Positions 57,197-63,770 of a DNA stretch of 64,000 bases are shown here, in pieces. Below the pieces are notes generated by a model, which worked only from the letters and a program-made list of their open reading frames with translations, ran no database searches and was not told the origin of the DNA. Positions within the stretch are counted from its first letter, which is position 1. Each line of letters opens with the position of its first letter. This DNA comes from a virus, in IMG/VR virus record IMGVR_UViG_3300045988_182793, positions 1 through 64,000 of that record, one strand, 5' to 3'. Both the position numbers and the translations under genes were made by a program.

Positions 57197-57272
57197 GCTG
57201 GTTTAGCTCAGCTGGTAGAGCAACTGATTTGTAATCAGTCGGTCATCGGTTCAAGTCCGATTTCCAGCTCCA
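57197..57272 (+). tRNA. tRNA-Thr (anticodon TGT); acceptor has two U-U mispairs
   Basis: cloverleaf traced by hand; D and T arms canonical. Confidence 0.6.
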
Positions 57273-57745
57273 GACGCTATCCGTTGGATGTATCGAAATC
57301 ACATGATACGATGCTATACACAACATCTGGCGGACAGCATGCCACCCATTAAGGCGGCCTCCTCGTGGCGGGTGGCGGACAGCGGCTCTTGCGGCTGCTG
57401 ACGAATGTCTTAGAAGCATGCAAACGTACGAGCATCCCCGTCAAGTCGGGGCGCATCCAGACGCGACACAGCCGTAAAGGCGAGATTGCTGCACGGCAAC
57501 TGGTAAGTTTCGCCGCAGTCTCACACACAGCCCAACAACAACCGTTAACCCGATTTGACAGGGAATCAACGACAGGGCTCAAAATTTGAAGTTGACCAAC
57601 ACCCAAGCGCTTTCTTGGATTCTCGCGTATCGTCAACGATGAGGTTCGCAAGATTGTCAGGTGGTGTGAAGATGACATCCGGGGATGACGACCTACTAAA
57701 CGGATGTCATGGCGGGGCTAAGTGAGGGTTCACCCGCAATCTTAT

Positions 57746-57820
57746 GCAGGTATCGTATAACGGCTAATACTCCGCCCCTCCAAGGCGGAGACGCGGGTTC
57801 GACCCCCGCTACTTGCTCCA
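57746..57820 (+). tRNA. tRNA-Gly (TCC)
   Basis: cloverleaf traced; encoded CCA. Confidence 0.7.
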
Positions 57821-58092
57821 CACGTCGCAGTCACCGTACGCCACGACGTTAAACTTGGTGAGCATGGTCCACTTGTGGTCCGCTGTCCGAATGTCGATGA
57901 GACAGCCTCAAAAATAATAGACAAACAGGTGCTGTGCCTGAAAGTATTCGAAAGTCCCGGTGTTAGTCGCGAATAAGACCGGAAAACGGTGAAGAGGGTA
58001 CAATACAGAATCTATCGGCGTGGCTGCCGAATGGTGCTGGATGCGAGTTGGCTTCTCGCTCAAGGGGTGACCAGCATAAAACACCCTATCGT

Positions 58093-58168
58093 GCTCGATT
58101 AGCTCAGTTGGTAGAGCAGCGCATTCGTAACGCGCAGGTCGGCAGTTCGAACCTGCCATCAAGCCCCA
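58093..58168 (+). tRNA. tRNA-Thr (CGT)
   Basis: cloverleaf traced; one A-C mismatch in anticodon stem. Confidence 0.65.
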
Positions 58169-58206
58169 TTACCCAATGAAGCGATAATAGAAAGGAGATG
58201 AAACTT

Positions 58207-58590
58207 ATGGAACAGGCAATTATCAATGTCGAAGGTACAACTACCATTGAAACCGCTGCAGCAGCCAAAAAGCTGATTGGGATGCTTGGCAACCAGAACG
58301 TCCGCGCCATCGCTGTCAACCGTGTAAACGACAAGAGCGACGAGGTCATTGTTGAACTCGATTTCGTTCCCGGTTTGGCACCGCATCTGCACGGCTTCAC
58401 GCTTCAGGTTAATGGCTTGACCTGTGGTTATGCTGGTACTGGTCCTTCCAATCTGTATGAAGTCCTGCAGGCGGCTGGCGTGAGTGAAGCTCAGGTAGCA
58501 CGCGAGGACATCACTCAGAAGAGCACAAAAACCATTCCTCTGCGCCTGGAACGCGCCGTGACTCAGTACGGCGACTTCCAGTTTGCGTAA
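58207..58590 (+). CDS. hypothetical protein (127 aa)
   Basis: RBS AAAGGAGA. Confidence 0.5.
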   Translation: MEQAIINVEGTTTIETAAAAKKLIGMLGNQNVRAIAVNRVNDKSDEVIVELDFVPGLAPHLHGFTLQVNGLTCGYAGTGPSNLYEVLQAAGVSEAQVAREDITQKSTKTIPLRLERAVTQYGDFQFA

Positions 58591-58620
58591 CGCTATTTGG
58601 CGGGCTTGACCCGCCATCAT

Positions 58621-58696
58621 GGAGGGATAGCTTAGCTGGATAAAGCACCTGCCGCAAAGCAGGGTATCGATGGTTCGAGGCCATCTCCCTTCTCCA
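58621..58696 (+). tRNA. tRNA-like with perfect 5-bp anticodon stem but 6-nt loop CGCAAA (Cys-GCA-like?)
   Basis: acceptor, D, T arms and CCA fit; anticodon loop non-canonical. Confidence 0.45.
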
Positions 58697-59055
58697 TCCA
58701 GACACCCTTTCGCTTCCTTTCGCCAAAGGTATCTGGGGTATTGTACTGCATTGCGTGTAGTACGGCCAATCAGGCGCGGAACTCCGAAACCATACCACGA
58801 AGAATTTTATCCTCTCCGCGCAGCATGGACATGCGATTTTACGGGGATAAATTCAAACCGAAATTGTGTCGAGTGGCGAAGACGGTTGCGACACTGGCGA
58901 AGCACATATCTGCTTCGTCAACCATCCATGAGAAAGCCTCCACGTGGCAGATGGTGGGCAACGCAGCAAAGCTGCGGCTGATTTCTTTCAAACCGGTATC
59001 TGAATAAATGCAGATAAATAGACGAAAAAATCAAAAAAGCAAAGGAGTACACAGC

Positions 59056-60189
59056 ATGAGTAATCAGAAAATCATCAAAGCAATCGCAGGGATTGCAGCA
59101 GCCGGTATGATGGCAACTTGTCTGCCTGTCGCAGCATTCGCAGCCACCGGCGACACCTATCATTTCTCTTTCAGCAACGGTTCTTCCCAGGACCTGGCTC
59201 CGGGCGGCTCTATGACGTTCCCGGCAAGCCAGTATGACTACGGTTACTGGATTACCCTGCAGGGCCACGGCGGCTACACCTACAACTACTATCCCGGCGA
59301 CACTCTGCCGTACGATGCAGTTGACCAGTGGTTCACCGCTGACGGCATCACTTCCTGCTATGCGGCCGAAGGTAATCCGCGTTCCATCACCATCAACTAT
59401 CAGATTGACGGCAACACTGTGCTGACCGAAACTGACACCGCCACTTTCCCCGGCAGCGTTGATGGTCAGAGCGTTGAAGCCTGGACCACGGATTCCGGTG
59501 ATACTTACACCGCATCCAGCAAGAGCCTGAACCATGACCGCCTGTTCTACTACCTGGGCGACGACATCCACGACAACGTCCTGACCCTGAAAGCCACTTC
59601 TGCATCCACTCCCGATGACGGCAAGGATGACAACAAGGGCGATGACAAGGGCGATGTCACCAACCCCGACGATAAGGGCGACAACAAGGGCGACAATACC
59701 GGCGACAGCGGCACCACCACTCCCGATGACAAGGGCGACGTAGTGGCCCCCGATAAGGACAACACCGGTAAGGACAACACTTCTACCGGCTCCAACAAGG
59801 GCAACGGTACTACCACCACTACTCCGACCGCTCCTCGCAAGAACGTTGAAGTCTCTGAGCACGGTGAAATTGCCGCCGCTATTGCCAATGGCACCTGGGG
59901 CAATGAGTACACCGTCTGCACCAGCTGTGGCTATCACAACTGGACCCGCAAGGGTAACGTTTACGTCTGTGACCATTGTGGTCACGAAGTCCTGACTGTC
60001 AAGGGCGCTGATGGCGTCAAGGGTTATGCTGGCACTCTGGCTGGCAATGAACCCCAGTACGCTTCTACCTCTGAAGCTCAGGCTGCTGCTGAAAAGCGTG
60101 AAGCCGCTTATGCCGCTTCCATCGCTGCTCTGCAGGCACAGGTTGCCGCTCGTGAAGCTGCTTATGCCGCTTCCCTGGGCATCCACTAA
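59056..60189 (+). CDS. secreted protein with DDKGD repeats and C-terminal CxxC..CxxC zinc-ribbon and coiled coil
   Basis: signal peptide MSNQKIIKAIAGIAAAGMMATCLPVAAFA. Confidence 0.6.
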   Translation: MSNQKIIKAIAGIAAAGMMATCLPVAAFAATGDTYHFSFSNGSSQDLAPGGSMTFPASQYDYGYWITLQGHGGYTYNYYPGDTLPYDAVDQWFTADGITSCYAAEGNPRSITINYQIDGNTVLTETDTATFPGSVDGQSVEAWTTDSGDTYTASSKSLNHDRLFYYLGDDIHDNVLTLKATSASTPDDGKDDNKGDDKGDVTNPDDKGDNKGDNTGDSGTTTPDDKGDVVAPDKDNTGKDNTSTGSNKGNGTTTTTPTAPRKNVEVSEHGEIAAAIANGTWGNEYTVCTSCGYHNWTRKGNVYVCDHCGHEVLTVKGADGVKGYAGTLAGNEPQYASTSEAQAAAEKREAAYAASIAALQAQVAAREAAYAASLGIH

Positions 60190-60235
60190 TTTGCCATCCT
60201 CTAACTAACGGTAATCGATAGTTTTTTCTCCTTGC

Positions 60236-62848: not shown

Positions 62849-62877
62849 ACCCTCGCCGCAGGATTGCGGCTATATAT

Positions 62878-62957
62878 GGCCCGTTGGACGAATTGGTAGA
62901 GTTGCCGCCCTTTCACGGCGGAGGTTATTGTGGGTTCGAAACCCACACGGGTCACCA
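62878..62957 (+). tRNA. tRNA-Glu (TTC) with unusually long (8-nt) variable region
   Basis: cloverleaf traced; resembles Firmicute tRNA-Glu ends. Confidence 0.6.
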
Positions 62958-62958
62958 T

Positions 62959-63034
62959 GCTTCTGTAGCTCAGTTGGTAGAGCAGCGGTCTGAAGAACCG
63001 CGTGTCGCTGGTTCGATTCCAGCCGGGAGCACCA
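62959..63034 (+). tRNA. tRNA-Phe (GAA)
   Basis: cloverleaf traced; 1-nt spacer after Glu. Confidence 0.7.
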
Positions 63035-63037
63035 TAT

Positions 63038-63122
63038 GTGTCGGTATGCAAGAGGTTAAAGCAAACGGTCTGTAAAACCGCTCCGTTACGGTTCGCTGGT
63101 TCGAATCCAGTCCGACACACCA
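63038..63122 (+). tRNA. tRNA-Tyr (GTA), long variable arm
   Basis: cloverleaf traced, 85 nt. Confidence 0.7.
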
Positions 63123-63125
63123 TAA

Positions 63126-63199
63126 GGCCCCTTCGACAAGTTGGTCCAAGTCGCCAGCCTCTCAAGCTGGAGTCGGCAGTTCGAGTCTGCCAGGGGTCA
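63126..63199 (+). tRNA. tRNA-Glu (CTC), no encoded CCA
   Basis: aligns to tRNA-Glu architecture. Confidence 0.55.
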
Positions 63200-63231
63200 C
63201 TACGTCGCACCTACGTTAAAAGGTGCATTAT

Positions 63232-63321
63232 GCAGAGGTCGCCTAACGGTAGGGCAGCAGCTTGCTAAGCTGCCGTCGCGGAAATCGCGGCATGTGAGTT
63301 CGAATCTCACCCTCTGCGCCA
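63232..63321 (+). tRNA. tRNA-Ser (GCT), long variable arm
   Basis: cloverleaf traced, 90 nt. Confidence 0.7.
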
Positions 63322-63770
63322 TCTGCTTGCTTGTTCGAGTGGTTGATGAAATCGGTCCAGAAAACCGACGATGGGAGACTGTCCGAAGGTTCGAATCCTT
63401 CAGCAAGCGCCACTGCCCTCATTCTGTGCGGTATCCGTGCAGGTGAGGGCTTTTTCTTTTGCTTTTCGCTTCGAATTTCGGACTCGAATGGCGTTAATGG
63501 TCGGATATTCTTGATTATACATGCCTTTGCTGTATGGCAAATAGCTCCAAACATATTGGTTTTTACACCCAATTCTTCTGCAATTTCAGGAACTGACATA
63601 CCGTTCGCACGCAGCTTCCCGATTTTTTCTGATGTTTCATCTGACCAGGCCCCGGCCGTAATCAGTATTTTGCGCACTTTCTGCAATGAGATGCCTGCAC
63701 GTTTGGCAATGGTTCTTCTAGGTATACCTTGCTCATGGAGCCGGAGAACCGTCTGCATTGTCGCGTCCAT
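63243..63770 (-). CDS. HTH-repeat protein (same repeat family), ORF 3' end overlaps tRNAs on opposite strand
   Basis: GIPRRTIAKRAGISLQKVRKIL and GMSVPEIAEELGVKTNMFG units; first in-frame stop not until 63243. Confidence 0.4.
   Translation of the reverse strand: MDATMQTVLRLHEQGIPRRTIAKRAGISLQKVRKILITAGAWSDETSEKIGKLRANGMSVPEIAEELGVKTNMFGAICHTAKACIIKNIRPLTPFESEIRSEKQKKKPSPARIPHRMRAVALAEGFEPSDSLPSSVFWTDFINHSNKQADGAEGEIRTHMPRFPRRQLSKLLPYR
63325..63412 (+). tRNA. class II tRNA with anticodon loop CCAGAAA (reads as AGA; Ser-like)
   Basis: clean stems; C33 and A34 non-canonical. Confidence 0.5.
63413..63462. terminator. bidirectional terminator
   Basis: GCCCTCA...TGAGGGC + TTTTTCTTTT. Confidence 0.65.

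What the first reader, a model, noticed from the sequence alone, without database searches (positions are those of the whole stretch)
57197..63412. Dense array of about 17 tRNA genes interleaved with phage-type ORFs
Tightly packed tRNAs, about 17 in 6 kb, are interspersed with a small-alarmone-hydrolase HD gene, a secreted repeat protein, an XRE regulator and short ORFs. Spacers between tRNAs are as short as 1-3 nt. Arrays like this are characteristic of large phages supplementing host translation. Between the tRNAs, 60475-61179 (confident product call) encodes a RelA/SpoT-type HD hydrolase, which would let the element lower (p)ppGpp/ppApp alarmones.
Basis: partly seen in the sequence, partly recalled or inferred. 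Interest (0 to 1): 0.6.

Follow-up and report, generated by a model that had tools for sequence, protein, structure and literature searches.

The report
Phage tRNA array punctuated by ribozymes
This is a real cluster of 18 tRNA genes in a large uncultivated gut phage, and its first operon also holds three HDV-like self-cleaving ribozymes, each right after a stable hairpin, and three conserved unknown structured RNAs, so it looks like an RNA-processing operon as well as a tRNA supply.

Summary
ARAGORN finds 18 same-strand tRNA genes at exactly 57197-63412, six junctions are 1-3 nt, and 16 of 18 encode CCA. The context is viral: over 100 related IMG/VR contigs (up to 389 kb) and PHROG hits. The HD gene is a RelA/SpoT-type hydrolase; its closest solved relative is the phage-encoded (p)ppApp hydrolase Aph1 (E 6e-24).

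- Their double-pseudoknot fold covaries across relatives: 93.6% paired vs 33-58% in slid controls, and 17 of 22 pairs change on both sides.
- A structural descriptor gives 250 plus-strand and 0 minus-strand hits in 1.56 Mb.
- Each follows a stable hairpin ending 0-2 nt before the cleavage site (58% vs 3.4% in controls).

They have a P4 helix and are not flush with tRNA 3' ends, so they are not theta ribozymes. Two slots in relatives do have the theta layout. The same ribozyme type also sits between protein cistrons in relatives; the window's copy at 11407 is a truncated relic.

Three conserved non-coding structured RNAs and a conserved tRNA with a 6-nt anticodon loop remain unexplained. Cleavage activity is inferred. 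Verdict: new variant of a known kind.

The parts
56922..56950 (+). sigma-70-type promoter TTGACC-17-TATAAT (with TG extension) at the head of the first transcription unit
   Evidence: 11 of 12 matches; conserved in relatives (S0 alignment)
56957..57111 (+). leader RNA of about 150 nt ending in the hairpin GGCGCGG-GTAACT-CCGCGCC (57091-57110) plus A57111; it would be released by ribozyme A
57112..57191 (+). HDV-like ribozyme A (predicted cleavage 57111|57112); it ends 5 nt before tRNA-Thr(UGU)
   Evidence: Rfam RF02682 46.6 bits, above the gathering score of 44; own model 85.9 bits; covariation
57197..57272 (+). tRNA-Thr(UGU), CCA encoded; U-U mismatches at 6:67 and 7:66
57273..57340 (+). 68-nt spacer between tRNA-Thr and ribozyme B; not a recognisable tRNA
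57341..57411 (+). HDV-like ribozyme B (predicted cleavage 57340|57341)
   Evidence: Rfam RF02682 34.1 bits, below the gathering score; own model 86.7 bits; P1, P2 and P4 compensatory relative to copies A and C
57412..57745 (+). S1: conserved non-coding structured RNA, 334 nt, no known family
   Evidence: no Rfam match
57746..57820 (+). tRNA-Gly(UCC), CCA encoded, G4-U69 wobble
57821..58092 (+). S2: conserved non-coding structured RNA, 272 nt, no known family
   Evidence: 7 compensatory pairs
58093..58168 (+). tRNA-Thr(CGU), CCA encoded, C4-A69 mismatch
58198..58590 (+). 130-aa ORF preceded by a ribosome-binding site; no family or structure match
58621..58696 (+). tRNA with a 6-nt anticodon loop (C-GCA-AA, no U33), U73 discriminator, CCA encoded. 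It looks Cys-like. It is identical in 54 loci and sits where other clades have tRNA-Ala(UGC)
58697..58920 (+). S3: conserved non-coding RNA, 224 nt, ending in a 10-bp hairpin (58895-58920) flush with the cleavage site of ribozyme C
58921..58987 (+). HDV-like ribozyme C (predicted cleavage 58920|58921); it lies in the 5' UTR about 70 nt before ATG 59056
   Evidence: Rfam RF02682 40.7 bits, E 1.4e-5; own model 76.9 bits
59056..60189 (+). 377-aa protein with a signal-peptide-like N-terminus and an Asp/Lys/Gly-rich low-complexity region; no family match
60273..60361 (+). tRNA-Ser(UGA)
60367..60392 (+). intrinsic-terminator-like hairpin GCCGGGGCTTCCCGGC followed by a T-run; likely end of transcription unit 1
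60475..61179 (+). HD-domain alarmone-type hydrolase: Aph1-like domain at aa 9-146, plus a C-terminal domain (aa 147-227) resembling the N-terminus of PADLOC PDC-M02B
61212..61240 (+). promoter-like site TTGACT-17-TATAAT ahead of the second tRNA block
61573..62256 (+). block of 7 tRNAs: Gln(UUG), Lys(UUU), Asn(GUU), Leu(CAA), Asn(GUU), Leu(UAA), Trp(CCA). The two 78-nt 'Leu' tRNAs are atypical (short variable arm, 3-bp D stem)
62627..62848 (+). XRE/HTH_3 regulator, 73 aa
62878..63412 (+). block of 6 tRNAs: Glu(UUC), Phe(GAA), Tyr(GUA), Glu(CUC), Ser(GCU), Ser(AGA)
11407..11444 (+). truncated relic of a fourth ribozyme of the same type (hairpin 11387-11405, A, then P1/P3/L3/P1.1 only), lying after the VWA gene. 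The copy is intact in most relatives

Best explanation
The region is the tRNA/non-coding-RNA module of a large uncultivated gut phage (related contigs reach 389 kb). It carries 18 tRNA genes in about four transcription units.

The first unit runs from the promoter at 56922 to the terminator at 60367. It is transcribed as one precursor holding a leader, Thr/Gly/Thr tRNAs, three structured RNAs, two ORFs, an aberrant tRNA and tRNA-Ser.

Three HDV-like self-cleaving ribozymes cut this precursor at their own 5' ends: 57111|57112, 57340|57341 and 58920|58921. Two of the cuts (57111|57112 and 58920|58921) fall immediately 3' of a stable hairpin; the helix before 57341 is weak. Each upstream piece is therefore left with a 2',3'-cyclic-phosphate 3' end, hairpin-capped at the two cuts that follow a stable hairpin. 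The downstream piece starts with a compact 5'-OH ribozyme fold.

The ribozymes thus act as terminator-independent punctuation or insulators. They separate the leader, the tRNA precursors, the structured RNAs and the mRNA of the secreted protein. Host RNase P and 3' trimming enzymes would then finish the CCA-encoding tRNAs.

The tRNAs feed phage translation. The Aph1-like HD enzyme removes (p)ppApp-type alarmones or related pyrophosphate marks made by toxins.

Shown: the tRNA genes; viral context; the conserved, covarying HDV fold with an invariant catalytic C; the hairpin association; strand exclusivity; the homology of the HD domain. Inferred: actual self-cleavage; the fate and stability of the products; the role of the tRNAs; the substrate of the hydrolase.
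For: tRNAs.

Viral context:
- 109 relatives on IMG/VR contigs with a syntenic array.
- PHROG hits to helicase, HNH endonuclease and tail protein.

Ribozymes:
- Rfam RF02682 hits at 46.6, 40.7 and 34.1 bits.
- A covariance model built from the three copies finds 248 hits in 80 loci, all on the + strand and all in the array.
- All five helices of the double pseudoknot covary: 93.6% of cells paired vs 33-58% for slid partners, 17 of 22 pairs with double-sided changes, 0 of 500 shuffles as high.
- The catalytic-C column is conserved.
- A structural descriptor gives 250 plus-strand and 0 minus-strand hits in 1.56 Mb.
- Nine relatives' copies pass Rfam's own gathering score.

Hairpin rule: 58% of 31 distinct upstream contexts have a hairpin of -10 kcal/mol or stronger ending 0-2 nt from the cleavage site, vs 3.4% of 3000 random windows (Mann-Whitney p 1e-10). 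The S3 hairpin covaries between clades.

Intercistronic use: relatives carry an intact hairpin-A|ribozyme-RBS-ORF arrangement after the VWA gene, with compensatory changes in L354 and 58 bits in Rfam.

One promoter and one terminator bracket all three ribozymes.

HD protein: 7SMG/Aph1 at E 6e-24 with the HD, ED and D..N motifs aligned; phrog_990 at E 6e-48.
Against: - No cleavage assay or RNA-end data exist. Two of the three window copies score below Rfam's curated threshold.
- Ribozyme B lacks a strong upstream hairpin (-3.2 kcal/mol).
- Why a ribozyme should sit 5-15 nt upstream of a tRNA is unclear, because RNase P would remove any leader anyway.
- A 2',3'-cyclic phosphate could hinder rather than help exonucleolytic 3' trimming of the tRNA-Thr trailer.
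- The promoter and terminator are only consensus matches.
- The host is unknown, so the codon-supplement role is untested.
Confidence: 0.7

Rival explanations
1. Counter-defence module. The tRNAs replace host tRNAs that defence systems inactivate (anticodon nucleases, or toxSAS enzymes that pyrophosphorylate CCA ends). The HD hydrolase reverses toxSAS action, either on (pp)pApp or on the tRNA 3'-pyrophosphate. This is not exclusive of the best explanation; it concerns what the tRNAs and the hydrolase are for.
For: - Phage tRNAs are reported to evade tRNA-targeting defences (PMC10264068, PMC11555353).
- The toxSAS FaRel2, from a gut Firmicute, selects tRNA-Gly and tRNA-Thr through G1-C72, C2-G71, G4-C69 and Pu5-Py68. 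A phage small alarmone hydrolase (PaSpo) reverses the modification (PMC11245113).
- The first operon here carries exactly Thr, Gly and Thr tRNAs. The window's Gly has G4-U69 and Thr(CGU) has C4-A69. Positions 2, 4 and 5 differ between clades.
- The HD enzyme lies next to them and resembles Aph1, an immunity protein against a (p)ppApp toxin (PMC10083569).
- Its C-terminal domain resembles the N-terminus of a candidate defence protein.
- The window also encodes an RlaP RNA-repair-type nucleotidyltransferase.
Against: - The host and its defence repertoire are unknown.
- tRNA-Thr(UGU) keeps all four FaRel2 determinants.
- I did not test whether acceptor-stem variability exceeds that of the other tRNAs in the array.
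- Most of the 18 tRNAs have no link to a known nuclease target.
Confidence: 0.35
2. The ribozymes are theta ribozymes. They would mature tRNA 3' ends in place of host RNases and support a stop-codon code switch, as proposed for recoded gut phages.
For: - The ribozyme superfamily and habitat are the same (PMC10879173).
- Three slots in relatives have the cleavage site flush with a tRNA 3' end. These are tRNA-Gly(UCC)+CCA+2 nt, tRNA-Leu(CAA)+2 nt in L222, and a CCA-less Leu(AAG)-like tRNA that ends at 12568 with the ribozyme starting at 12569 in L070.
Against: - All copies have a covarying P4, whereas theta ribozymes are defined as lacking P4.
- In the window the cleavage sites lie 68 nt and 224 nt after a tRNA, or after no tRNA at all. 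Relaxed ARAGORN finds no cryptic tRNA there.
- 16 of 18 tRNAs encode CCA, vs 4.5% for theta-associated tRNAs (PMC10879173).
- There is no suppressor tRNA. The window is 83% coding under the standard code, and TAG is used as a stop.
- The same ribozyme also sits between protein genes.
- The sequences are absent from the theta paper's supplementary lists.
Confidence: 0.1
3. The ribozyme-like elements are inactive relics, for example remnants of decayed tRNA-ribozyme units, and have no present function.
For: - The window's copy at 11407 is a truncated relic.
- Some spacers look like decayed tRNAs.
- Two window copies fall below Rfam's gathering score.
Against: - The three array copies keep every helix through compensatory changes, and they keep the catalytic C, across clades whose HD protein is only about 61% identical.
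- Strict strand bias.
- The upstream hairpins themselves covary.
Confidence: 0.1
4. An ordinary chromosomal tRNA operon of a bacterium, possibly next to a prophage remnant.
For: Most of the tRNAs encode CCA and look canonical. An XRE regulator is present.
Against: - All relatives lie on contigs classified as viral, with conserved synteny.
- Flanking ORFs match phage families.
- There are no rRNA or housekeeping genes.
- Ribozymes of this type in bacterial genomes are almost never near tRNAs: about 35 loci, and only one weak case has any tRNA within 8 kb.
Confidence: 0.03

Closest known systems
Theta ribozymes (Kienbeck et al. 2024, PMC10879173)
   Same: Both are HDV-like self-cleaving ribozymes in gut Caudoviricetes-type phage contigs and are associated with phage tRNA genes. 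In two or three slots of related contigs the cleavage site is flush with a tRNA 3' end.
   Different: - Theta ribozymes lack P4; these have a covarying P4.
- In the window none is within 5 nt of a tRNA 3' end.
- Several lie 5-15 nt upstream of a tRNA, in a 5' UTR or between protein cistrons.
- The neighbouring tRNAs encode CCA.
- There is no recoding and no suppressor tRNA.
- The related bacterial copies are in Clostridia rather than Bacteroidota.
drz-Fpra-1 / Rfam RF02682 (HDV ribozyme from Faecalibacterium prausnitzii)
   Same: Same covariance-model family. Ribozyme A and nine copies in relatives pass the gathering score. The architecture is the same: P1, P1.1, P2, P3 and P4 with the CCUCC.CG L3 core.
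   Different: The described example is a single chromosomal copy upstream of glmM (PMC6765202). Here there are multi-copy, hairpin-coupled modules inside a phage tRNA/mRNA operon. Bacterial copies sampled here are not near tRNAs.
tRNA gene arrays of large phages (T4, T5, jumbo phages, mycobacteriophages)
   Same: Dense same-strand tRNA clusters with very short spacers, interleaved with small ORFs. Relatives also carry a tmRNA.
   Different: This array also contains ribozymes, about 830 nt of conserved structured RNA of unknown class, and a conserved tRNA lacking U33.
Aph1 (PDB 7SMG) and phage small alarmone hydrolases such as PaSpo
   Same: An HD-domain RelA/SpoT-type hydrolase fold with aligned catalytic motifs; phage-encoded.
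   Different: This protein has an extra C-terminal domain of about 85 aa. No adjacent MuF-Apk toxin was seen in the array. The substrate is untested.
Ribozyme insulators and tRNA punctuation (engineered RiboJ; the mitochondrial tRNA punctuation model) - from my own knowledge
   Same: Self-cleavage or tRNA processing is used to cut a polycistronic RNA into units with defined ends, independent of transcription termination.
   Different: These are analogies of mechanism only; there is no homology. RiboJ is a hammerhead that keeps a hairpin downstream of the cut, whereas here the hairpin is upstream of an HDV-type cut.

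Membership tests
Phage tRNA gene array | Many tRNA genes clustered on one strand with short spacers | tested here: met
   18 tRNAs in 6.2 kb, all on the + strand; six spacers of 1-3 nt; Rfam tRNA scores 46-69 bits
Phage tRNA gene array | Located in a viral genome | tested here: met
   109 relatives on IMG/VR viral contigs with a syntenic array; PHROG hits in the window
Phage tRNA gene array | tRNAs complement codons poorly served by the host | not testable with these tools
   Host unknown. The phage tRNAs read mostly minority codons (TTA 8%, TCA 10%, CAA 31%), which is compatible but not a test
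HDV-like ribozymes (Rfam RF02682 type) | Nested double pseudoknot P1, P1.1, P2, P3, P4 | tested here: met
   All five helices are supported by covariation; 93.6% paired vs 33-58% for slid partners
HDV-like ribozymes (Rfam RF02682 type) | Catalytic cytosine at the start of J4/2 | tested here: met
   Present in every row with E<0.01 in alignment A3 (GGCUAA, GACGAA, GGCUGA, GGCAAA). Missing in the truncated 11407 relic
HDV-like ribozymes (Rfam RF02682 type) | Score at or above Rfam's gathering threshold (44 bits) | tested here: inconclusive
   Ribozyme A 46.6 (met); C 40.7 and B 34.1 (below). Nine copies in relatives score 44.6-59.2
HDV-like ribozymes (Rfam RF02682 type) | Self-cleavage at the 5' end of P1 | not testable with these tools
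   Needs an in vitro transcription and cleavage assay
Theta ribozymes | Minimal architecture without a P4 domain | tested here: not met
   A P4 of at least 4 bp (the 4 modelled pairs) is present and covaries (helix 5, 3 of 4 pairs with double-sided changes). Definition taken from PMC10879173
Theta ribozymes | Cleavage site within 5 nt of a tRNA 3' end | tested here: not met
   Window: no upstream tRNA, 68 nt, and 224 nt. The feature is met only in some slots of relatives
Aph1-type (p)ppApp hydrolase / small alarmone hydrolase | HD-domain fold with the H..HD..ED..D/N catalytic motifs | tested here: met
   Aligned to 7SMG over residues 9-146 at E 6e-24; LHDT.EDT and KL.DL..NMD conserved; Pfam HD_4
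Aph1-type (p)ppApp hydrolase / small alarmone hydrolase | Single-domain small protein | tested here: not met
   234 aa, with an extra C-terminal domain that matches the N-terminus of PDC-M02B and has no PDB relative
Aph1-type (p)ppApp hydrolase / small alarmone hydrolase | Hydrolyses (p)ppApp but not (p)ppGpp | not testable with these tools
   Needs biochemistry

The most novel reading that the evidence does not exclude
The 'tRNA array' would really be a factory for new phage non-coding RNAs. Hairpin-ribozyme modules would excise discrete RNAs with 5'-OH and 2',3'-cyclic-phosphate ends. Examples are the 229-nt ribozyme A + tRNA-Thr + spacer unit, and the S1, S2 and S3 structured RNAs. These RNAs would be stable effectors, or substrates for RtcB-type ligation or circularisation. 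The conserved U33-less tRNA would be a processing signal or a decoy for tRNA-targeting defences rather than a decoder. This would be a new RNA-processing logic in large gut phages that goes beyond tRNA 3'-end maturation.
Probability: 0.2. Interest if true: 0.8.

Novelty: new variant of a known kind. Interest (0 to 1): 0.62.

Why it matters
Only a few biological roles are known for small self-cleaving ribozymes in bacteria and phages. Theta ribozymes (2024) linked minimal HDV-like ribozymes to tRNA 3'-end maturation in recoded, mostly Bacteroidota-infecting phages.

This locus shows a full-size, P4-bearing HDV-like ribozyme family used repeatedly in a different phage lineage that uses the standard code. 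It occurs 3 times in this window and up to 7 times per locus in relatives. Each copy is coupled to an upstream hairpin. The positions include tRNA leaders, tRNA trailers, a 5' UTR and gaps between protein cistrons.

If the ribozymes are active, they are general, terminator-independent RNA punctuation marks. They would also be a natural counterpart of engineered ribozyme insulators. The predicted cleavage sites make this directly testable.

The locus also offers three conserved structured RNAs of unknown class, a conserved tRNA without U33, and a Thr/Gly tRNA plus alarmone-hydrolase pairing. That pairing could be a counter-measure to toxSAS immunity.

Tried and rejected
- BLAST of the array against 50,697 deposited phages found only tRNA-level matches and no close relative.
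- Cryptic tRNAs upstream of the window's three ribozymes: ARAGORN with thresholds relaxed to 60% finds none. It does find a Leu(AAG)-like tRNA in the distant clade.
- S1, S2 and S3 as protein-coding: rejected. There are stops in all frames, indels that are not multiples of three, and compensatory stem changes.
- S1, S2 and S3 as RNase P RNA, tmRNA, group I intron, GOLLD/ROOL or Y RNA: no Rfam match at E up to 5. The only hit is a 25-bit YrlA match driven by the adjacent tRNA.
- Stop-codon recoding or a suppressor tRNA: no evidence. The window is 83% coding under code 11, stops are TAA 29, TGA 26 and TAG 4, and no suppressor anticodon is present.
- Codon-usage test of the 'supplement' idea: inconclusive without a host genome.
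- Host identification: only indirect. Ribozymes of this type occur in Ruminococcus, Oscillospiraceae, Acutalibacteraceae and other Clostridia genomes.
- The CCTCT variant of the ribozyme pattern in viral contigs gave only 2 matches, neither confirmed by the structural descriptor.
- PDB sequence searches found nothing for the HD protein's C-terminal domain or the 130-aa ORF.
- The theta paper's supplementary sequence lists do not contain the window's ribozyme cores.
- The window element at 11407, first taken for a possible fourth active ribozyme, is a truncated relic.

Full report
**1. Observation**

ARAGORN finds 18 tRNA genes, all on the + strand, between 57197 and 63412. Rfam's tRNA model scores 17 of them at 46.9-68.7 bits in the whole-window search and the 18th at 46.4 bits in a more sensitive search.

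Six junctions have spacers of 1-3 nt. Sixteen of the 18 encode CCA.

The ORFs between the tRNAs are as described:
- An HD-domain protein at 60475-61179.
- A 377-aa protein with a signal-peptide-like N-terminus and a low-complexity region. Its likely start is the ATG at 59056, which follows a ribosome-binding site.
- An XRE/HTH_3 regulator at 62627-62848.
- A 130-aa ORF at 58198-58590.

**2. Context**

No deposited phage is close; BLAST gives only tRNA-level matches. The HD protein, however, recruits 109 relatives on IMG/VR viral contigs (the best 80 kept as loci) at 60-100% identity.
- Several contigs of about 153-165 kb have near-identical lengths.
- Others reach 222-389 kb.
- The relatives carry the same syntenic array, and many also hold a tmRNA between the HD gene and the next tRNA block.

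Window ORFs match phage helicase, HNH endonuclease, tail-protein and transposase families. The window is 83% coding under the standard code, has no suppressor tRNA, and uses TAG as a stop. The array therefore belongs to a large uncultivated phage, not to a chromosome.

**3.

Rfam reports an HDV-like ribozyme (RF02682, the F. prausnitzii type) at 57112-57192. It scores 46.6 bits against a gathering score of 44 and ends 5 nt before the first tRNA.

The sensitive search adds 58921-58988 (40.7 bits) and 57341-57412 (34.1 bits). The three copies share the L3/P3 core (GCCUCC.CG.GGC), the GG of P1.1 and the catalytic C. They differ in P1, P2 and P4 in a compensatory way.

Evidence from relatives:
- A covariance model built from the three copies finds 248 matches in the 80 related loci. 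All are on the + strand and all lie inside the array region, with up to 7 per locus in the distant clade.
- On a diverse alignment (39 distinct sequences), all five helices of the double pseudoknot are supported. 93.6% of cells are paired, against 33-58% when partners are slid. 17 of 22 pairs change on both sides, and 0 of 500 shuffles reach the observed values.
- A simple structural descriptor gives 250 hits on the + strand and none on the - strand in 1.56 Mb.
- Nine copies in relatives pass Rfam's own threshold at 44.6-59.2 bits.

The fold is therefore real and under selection. Self-cleavage itself was not tested.

**4. Anatomy of the first transcription unit**

A strong promoter-like site (TTGACC-17-TATAAT, 56922-56950) and a terminator-like hairpin with a T-run (60367-60382) bracket all three ribozymes. 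The inferred precursor, in order, is:
- a leader of about 150 nt ending in a hairpin plus A;
- ribozyme A;
- tRNA-Thr(UGU), after 5 nt;
- a 68-nt spacer;
- ribozyme B;
- S1 (334 nt);
- tRNA-Gly(UCC);
- S2 (272 nt);
- tRNA-Thr(CGU);
- the 130-aa ORF;
- the aberrant tRNA;
- S3 (224 nt, ending in a hairpin);
- ribozyme C;
- a 5' UTR of about 70 nt;
- the 377-aa ORF;
- tRNA-Ser(UGA);
- the terminator.

Because HDV-type ribozymes cut at their own 5' end, the predicted cuts are 57111|57112, 57340|57341 and 58920|58921.

**5. A hairpin rule**

Almost every ribozyme in the family is preceded by a stable helix that ends 0-2 nt before the cleavage site. Among 31 distinct upstream contexts, 58% have a hairpin of -10 kcal/mol or stronger placed this way. 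Only 3.4% of 3000 random windows do (Mann-Whitney p 1e-10). The nucleotide before the cut is A or U in 29 of 31 contexts.

The S3 hairpin keeps its pairing between clades through compensatory changes. Four of the exceptions (of 13) are tRNA acceptor stems. In the distant clade one ribozyme starts 2 nt after the CCA of tRNA-Gly. Another starts immediately after a CCA-less Leu(AAG)-like tRNA, which ARAGORN finds only at relaxed thresholds and which Rfam scores at 29.5 bits, ending at 12568 with the ribozyme starting at 12569. In L222 a third starts 2 nt after tRNA-Leu(CAA).

Other slots place the ribozyme 5-15 nt upstream of a tRNA: Thr, Asn, Met and Ser.

**6. The ribozymes are not restricted to tRNAs**

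The window has a weaker match at 11407, just after the stop codon of a VWA-domain gene and a GC hairpin. In most relatives this position holds a complete ribozyme. It is followed 10-15 nt later by a ribosome-binding site and the next ORF. L354 shows compensatory P1 and P2 changes, and the L321 copy scores 58 bits in Rfam.

In the window and four relatives, everything 3' of P1.1 has been replaced by unrelated sequence. The window's copy is therefore a truncated relic. Ribozyme C likewise lies in a 5' UTR.

**7. Mechanism proposed**

The modules most likely act as terminator-independent punctuation. Co-transcriptional self-cleavage would leave the upstream RNA with a hairpin-capped 2',3'-cyclic-phosphate end. 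The downstream RNA would start with a compact 5'-OH fold. This separates the leader, the tRNA precursors, the structured RNAs and the mRNAs. RNase P and 3' trimming would complete the CCA-encoding tRNAs.

This step is inferred from the anatomy. Two points remain unclear:
- What benefit a ribozyme gives when it sits directly upstream of a tRNA.
- What effect the cyclic phosphate has on trimming.

**8. Comparison with known systems**

Theta ribozymes (PMC10879173):
- They are defined as minimal HDV-like ribozymes lacking P4.
- Their cleavage site lies within 5 nt of a tRNA 3' end.
- They sit on tRNAs that rarely encode CCA.
- Their hosts are about 90% Bacteroidota.
- They are linked to suppressor tRNAs.

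The window's copies fail the first two features and differ in the others. Their sequences are not in that paper's supplementary lists.

The copies do belong to Rfam family RF02682. That family's described member is a single chromosomal copy upstream of glmM (PMC6765202). A scan of bacterial genomes found about 35 structurally valid copies, mostly in Clostridia MAGs: Ruminococcus, Oscillospiraceae, Acutalibacteraceae and Eubacteriales. Essentially none has a tRNA within 8 kb. Embedding in a tRNA array is therefore a property of this phage lineage. A third clade with the same synteny and four divergent ribozymes per locus supports this.

**9. The HD gene**

Residues 9-146 align to Aph1 (PDB 7SMG) at E 6e-24 with the catalytic motifs conserved. 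The protein also hits Pfam HD_4, TIGR00691 (N-terminal hydrolase part) and phrog_990 at E 6e-48.

Aph1 is a phage-encoded monofunctional (p)ppApp hydrolase with no detectable ppGpp activity. It serves as immunity against a (p)ppApp-synthetase toxin (PMC10083569).

The extra C-terminal domain (aa 147-227) has no PDB relative. It matches the N-terminus of the PADLOC candidate defence protein PDC-M02B at E 3e-9.

**10. What the tRNAs are for**

Codon supplementation could not be tested. The phage tRNAs read mostly minority codons in the window's genes, and the host is unknown.

An anti-defence reading is at least as attractive.
[quoted passage not shown] A phage alarmone hydrolase reverses this (PMC11245113).
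- The first operon carries Thr, Gly and Thr tRNAs.
- In the window, Gly has G4-U69 and Thr(CGU) has C4-A69. Pairs 2, 4 and 5 vary among clades.

This is a lead, not a test.

**11. Unexplained items**

S1, S2 and S3 are conserved even where the HD protein is only about 61% identical. They are non-coding and show compensatory changes: 7 pairs in S2 by RNAalifold, plus others seen by eye. They match no Rfam family.

The tRNA at 58621-58696 has a 6-nt anticodon loop (C-GCA-AA, lacking U33), a U73 discriminator and an encoded CCA. It is identical in 54 loci. It replaces a normal tRNA-Ala(UGC) found in other clades. It may be a processing signal or a decoy rather than a decoder; that is speculation.

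**12. Verdict**

The notable finding is a hairpin-coupled, P4-bearing HDV-like ribozyme family. It punctuates a phage tRNA/ncRNA/mRNA operon and also sits between protein cistrons in relatives. I rate it a new variant of a known kind.

Noticed in passing
window 11387-11444 (relatives L321-L360, about 3193-3300): This is a truncated relic of a fourth HDV-like ribozyme after the VWA-domain gene (9686-11380). Most relatives have the complete hairpin-A|ribozyme followed by a ribosome-binding site and the next ORF. In the window, unrelated sequence replaces everything 3' of P1.1.
   Followed up: yes
window 58621-58696: A conserved tRNA with a 6-nt anticodon loop lacking U33. It looks Cys-like (U73 discriminator, GCA anticodon), is identical in 54 related loci, and sits at the slot where other clades have tRNA-Ala(UGC).
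   Followed up: partly
window 57412-57745, 57821-58092, 58697-58920: Three conserved non-coding segments (S1, S2, S3) with compensatory base changes and no Rfam family. They are candidate new structured RNAs interleaved with the tRNAs.
   Followed up: partly
L017, L027, L066, L070, L072, L075, L079 (about 11535-12045): Many relatives carry a phage tmRNA (tag DNNRYASPIAA; Rfam 86.9 bits in L070), together with Val, Asn, Lys and Met tRNAs, between the HD gene and the next tRNA block. The window lacks this insert.
   Followed up: partly
window 60913-61155 (aa 147-227 of the HD protein): The C-terminal domain of the HD hydrolase resembles the N-terminus of the PADLOC candidate defence protein PDC-M02B (nine models, best E 3e-9). 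It has no PDB relative.
   Followed up: partly
window 27966-28955: This ORF matches Pfam RlaP (RNA-repair-pathway Pol-beta-type nucleotidyltransferase, E 1.6e-19) and phrog_388. That may be relevant to tRNA or ribozyme-end metabolism. No RtcB-like ligase was recognised among the window ORFs scanned.
   Followed up: partly
window 54027-54941 and 53013-53981: The first is an AAA ATPase strongly similar to the defence-system protein IetA (PADLOC E 7e-56). Next to it is a 322-aa protein made of about six tandem helix-turn-helix domains.
   Followed up: no
window 61913-61990 and 62098-62175: The two 'tRNA-Leu' genes (CAA and UAA) are only 78 nt long, with a short variable arm and a 3-bp D stem. Leu(UAA) lacks CCA. 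In L032 its anticodon is UAU. A similar Leu(AAG)-like tRNA abuts a ribozyme in the distant clade.
   Followed up: partly
window 57197-57272, 57746-57820, 58093-58168: The acceptor stems of the Thr and Gly tRNAs carry mismatches or wobbles (U-U at 6:67 and 7:66; G4-U69; C4-A69) and vary between clades at pairs 2, 4 and 5. The toxSAS FaRel2 reads pairs 1, 2, 4 and 5.
   Followed up: partly
L239 8934-8988, 9576-9630, 11533-11601: An unrelated phage contig carries two Twister-P5 ribozymes (64 and 67 bits) and one HDV-like ribozyme with the same upstream-hairpin layout. No tRNAs are nearby.
   Followed up: no
window 63243-63770 (- strand): A convergent HTH_7-type ORF. As listed, its C-terminal roughly 170 nt run antisense through the last two tRNA-Ser genes, so the true gene is probably shorter.
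   Followed up: no
window 12084-14249 and 47842-48957: A 721-aa protein with a PLD/NgoFVII-like nuclease domain lies just downstream of the recombination breakpoint that truncated the 11407 ribozyme. The second ORF matches a transposase family (phrog_506).
   Followed up: no
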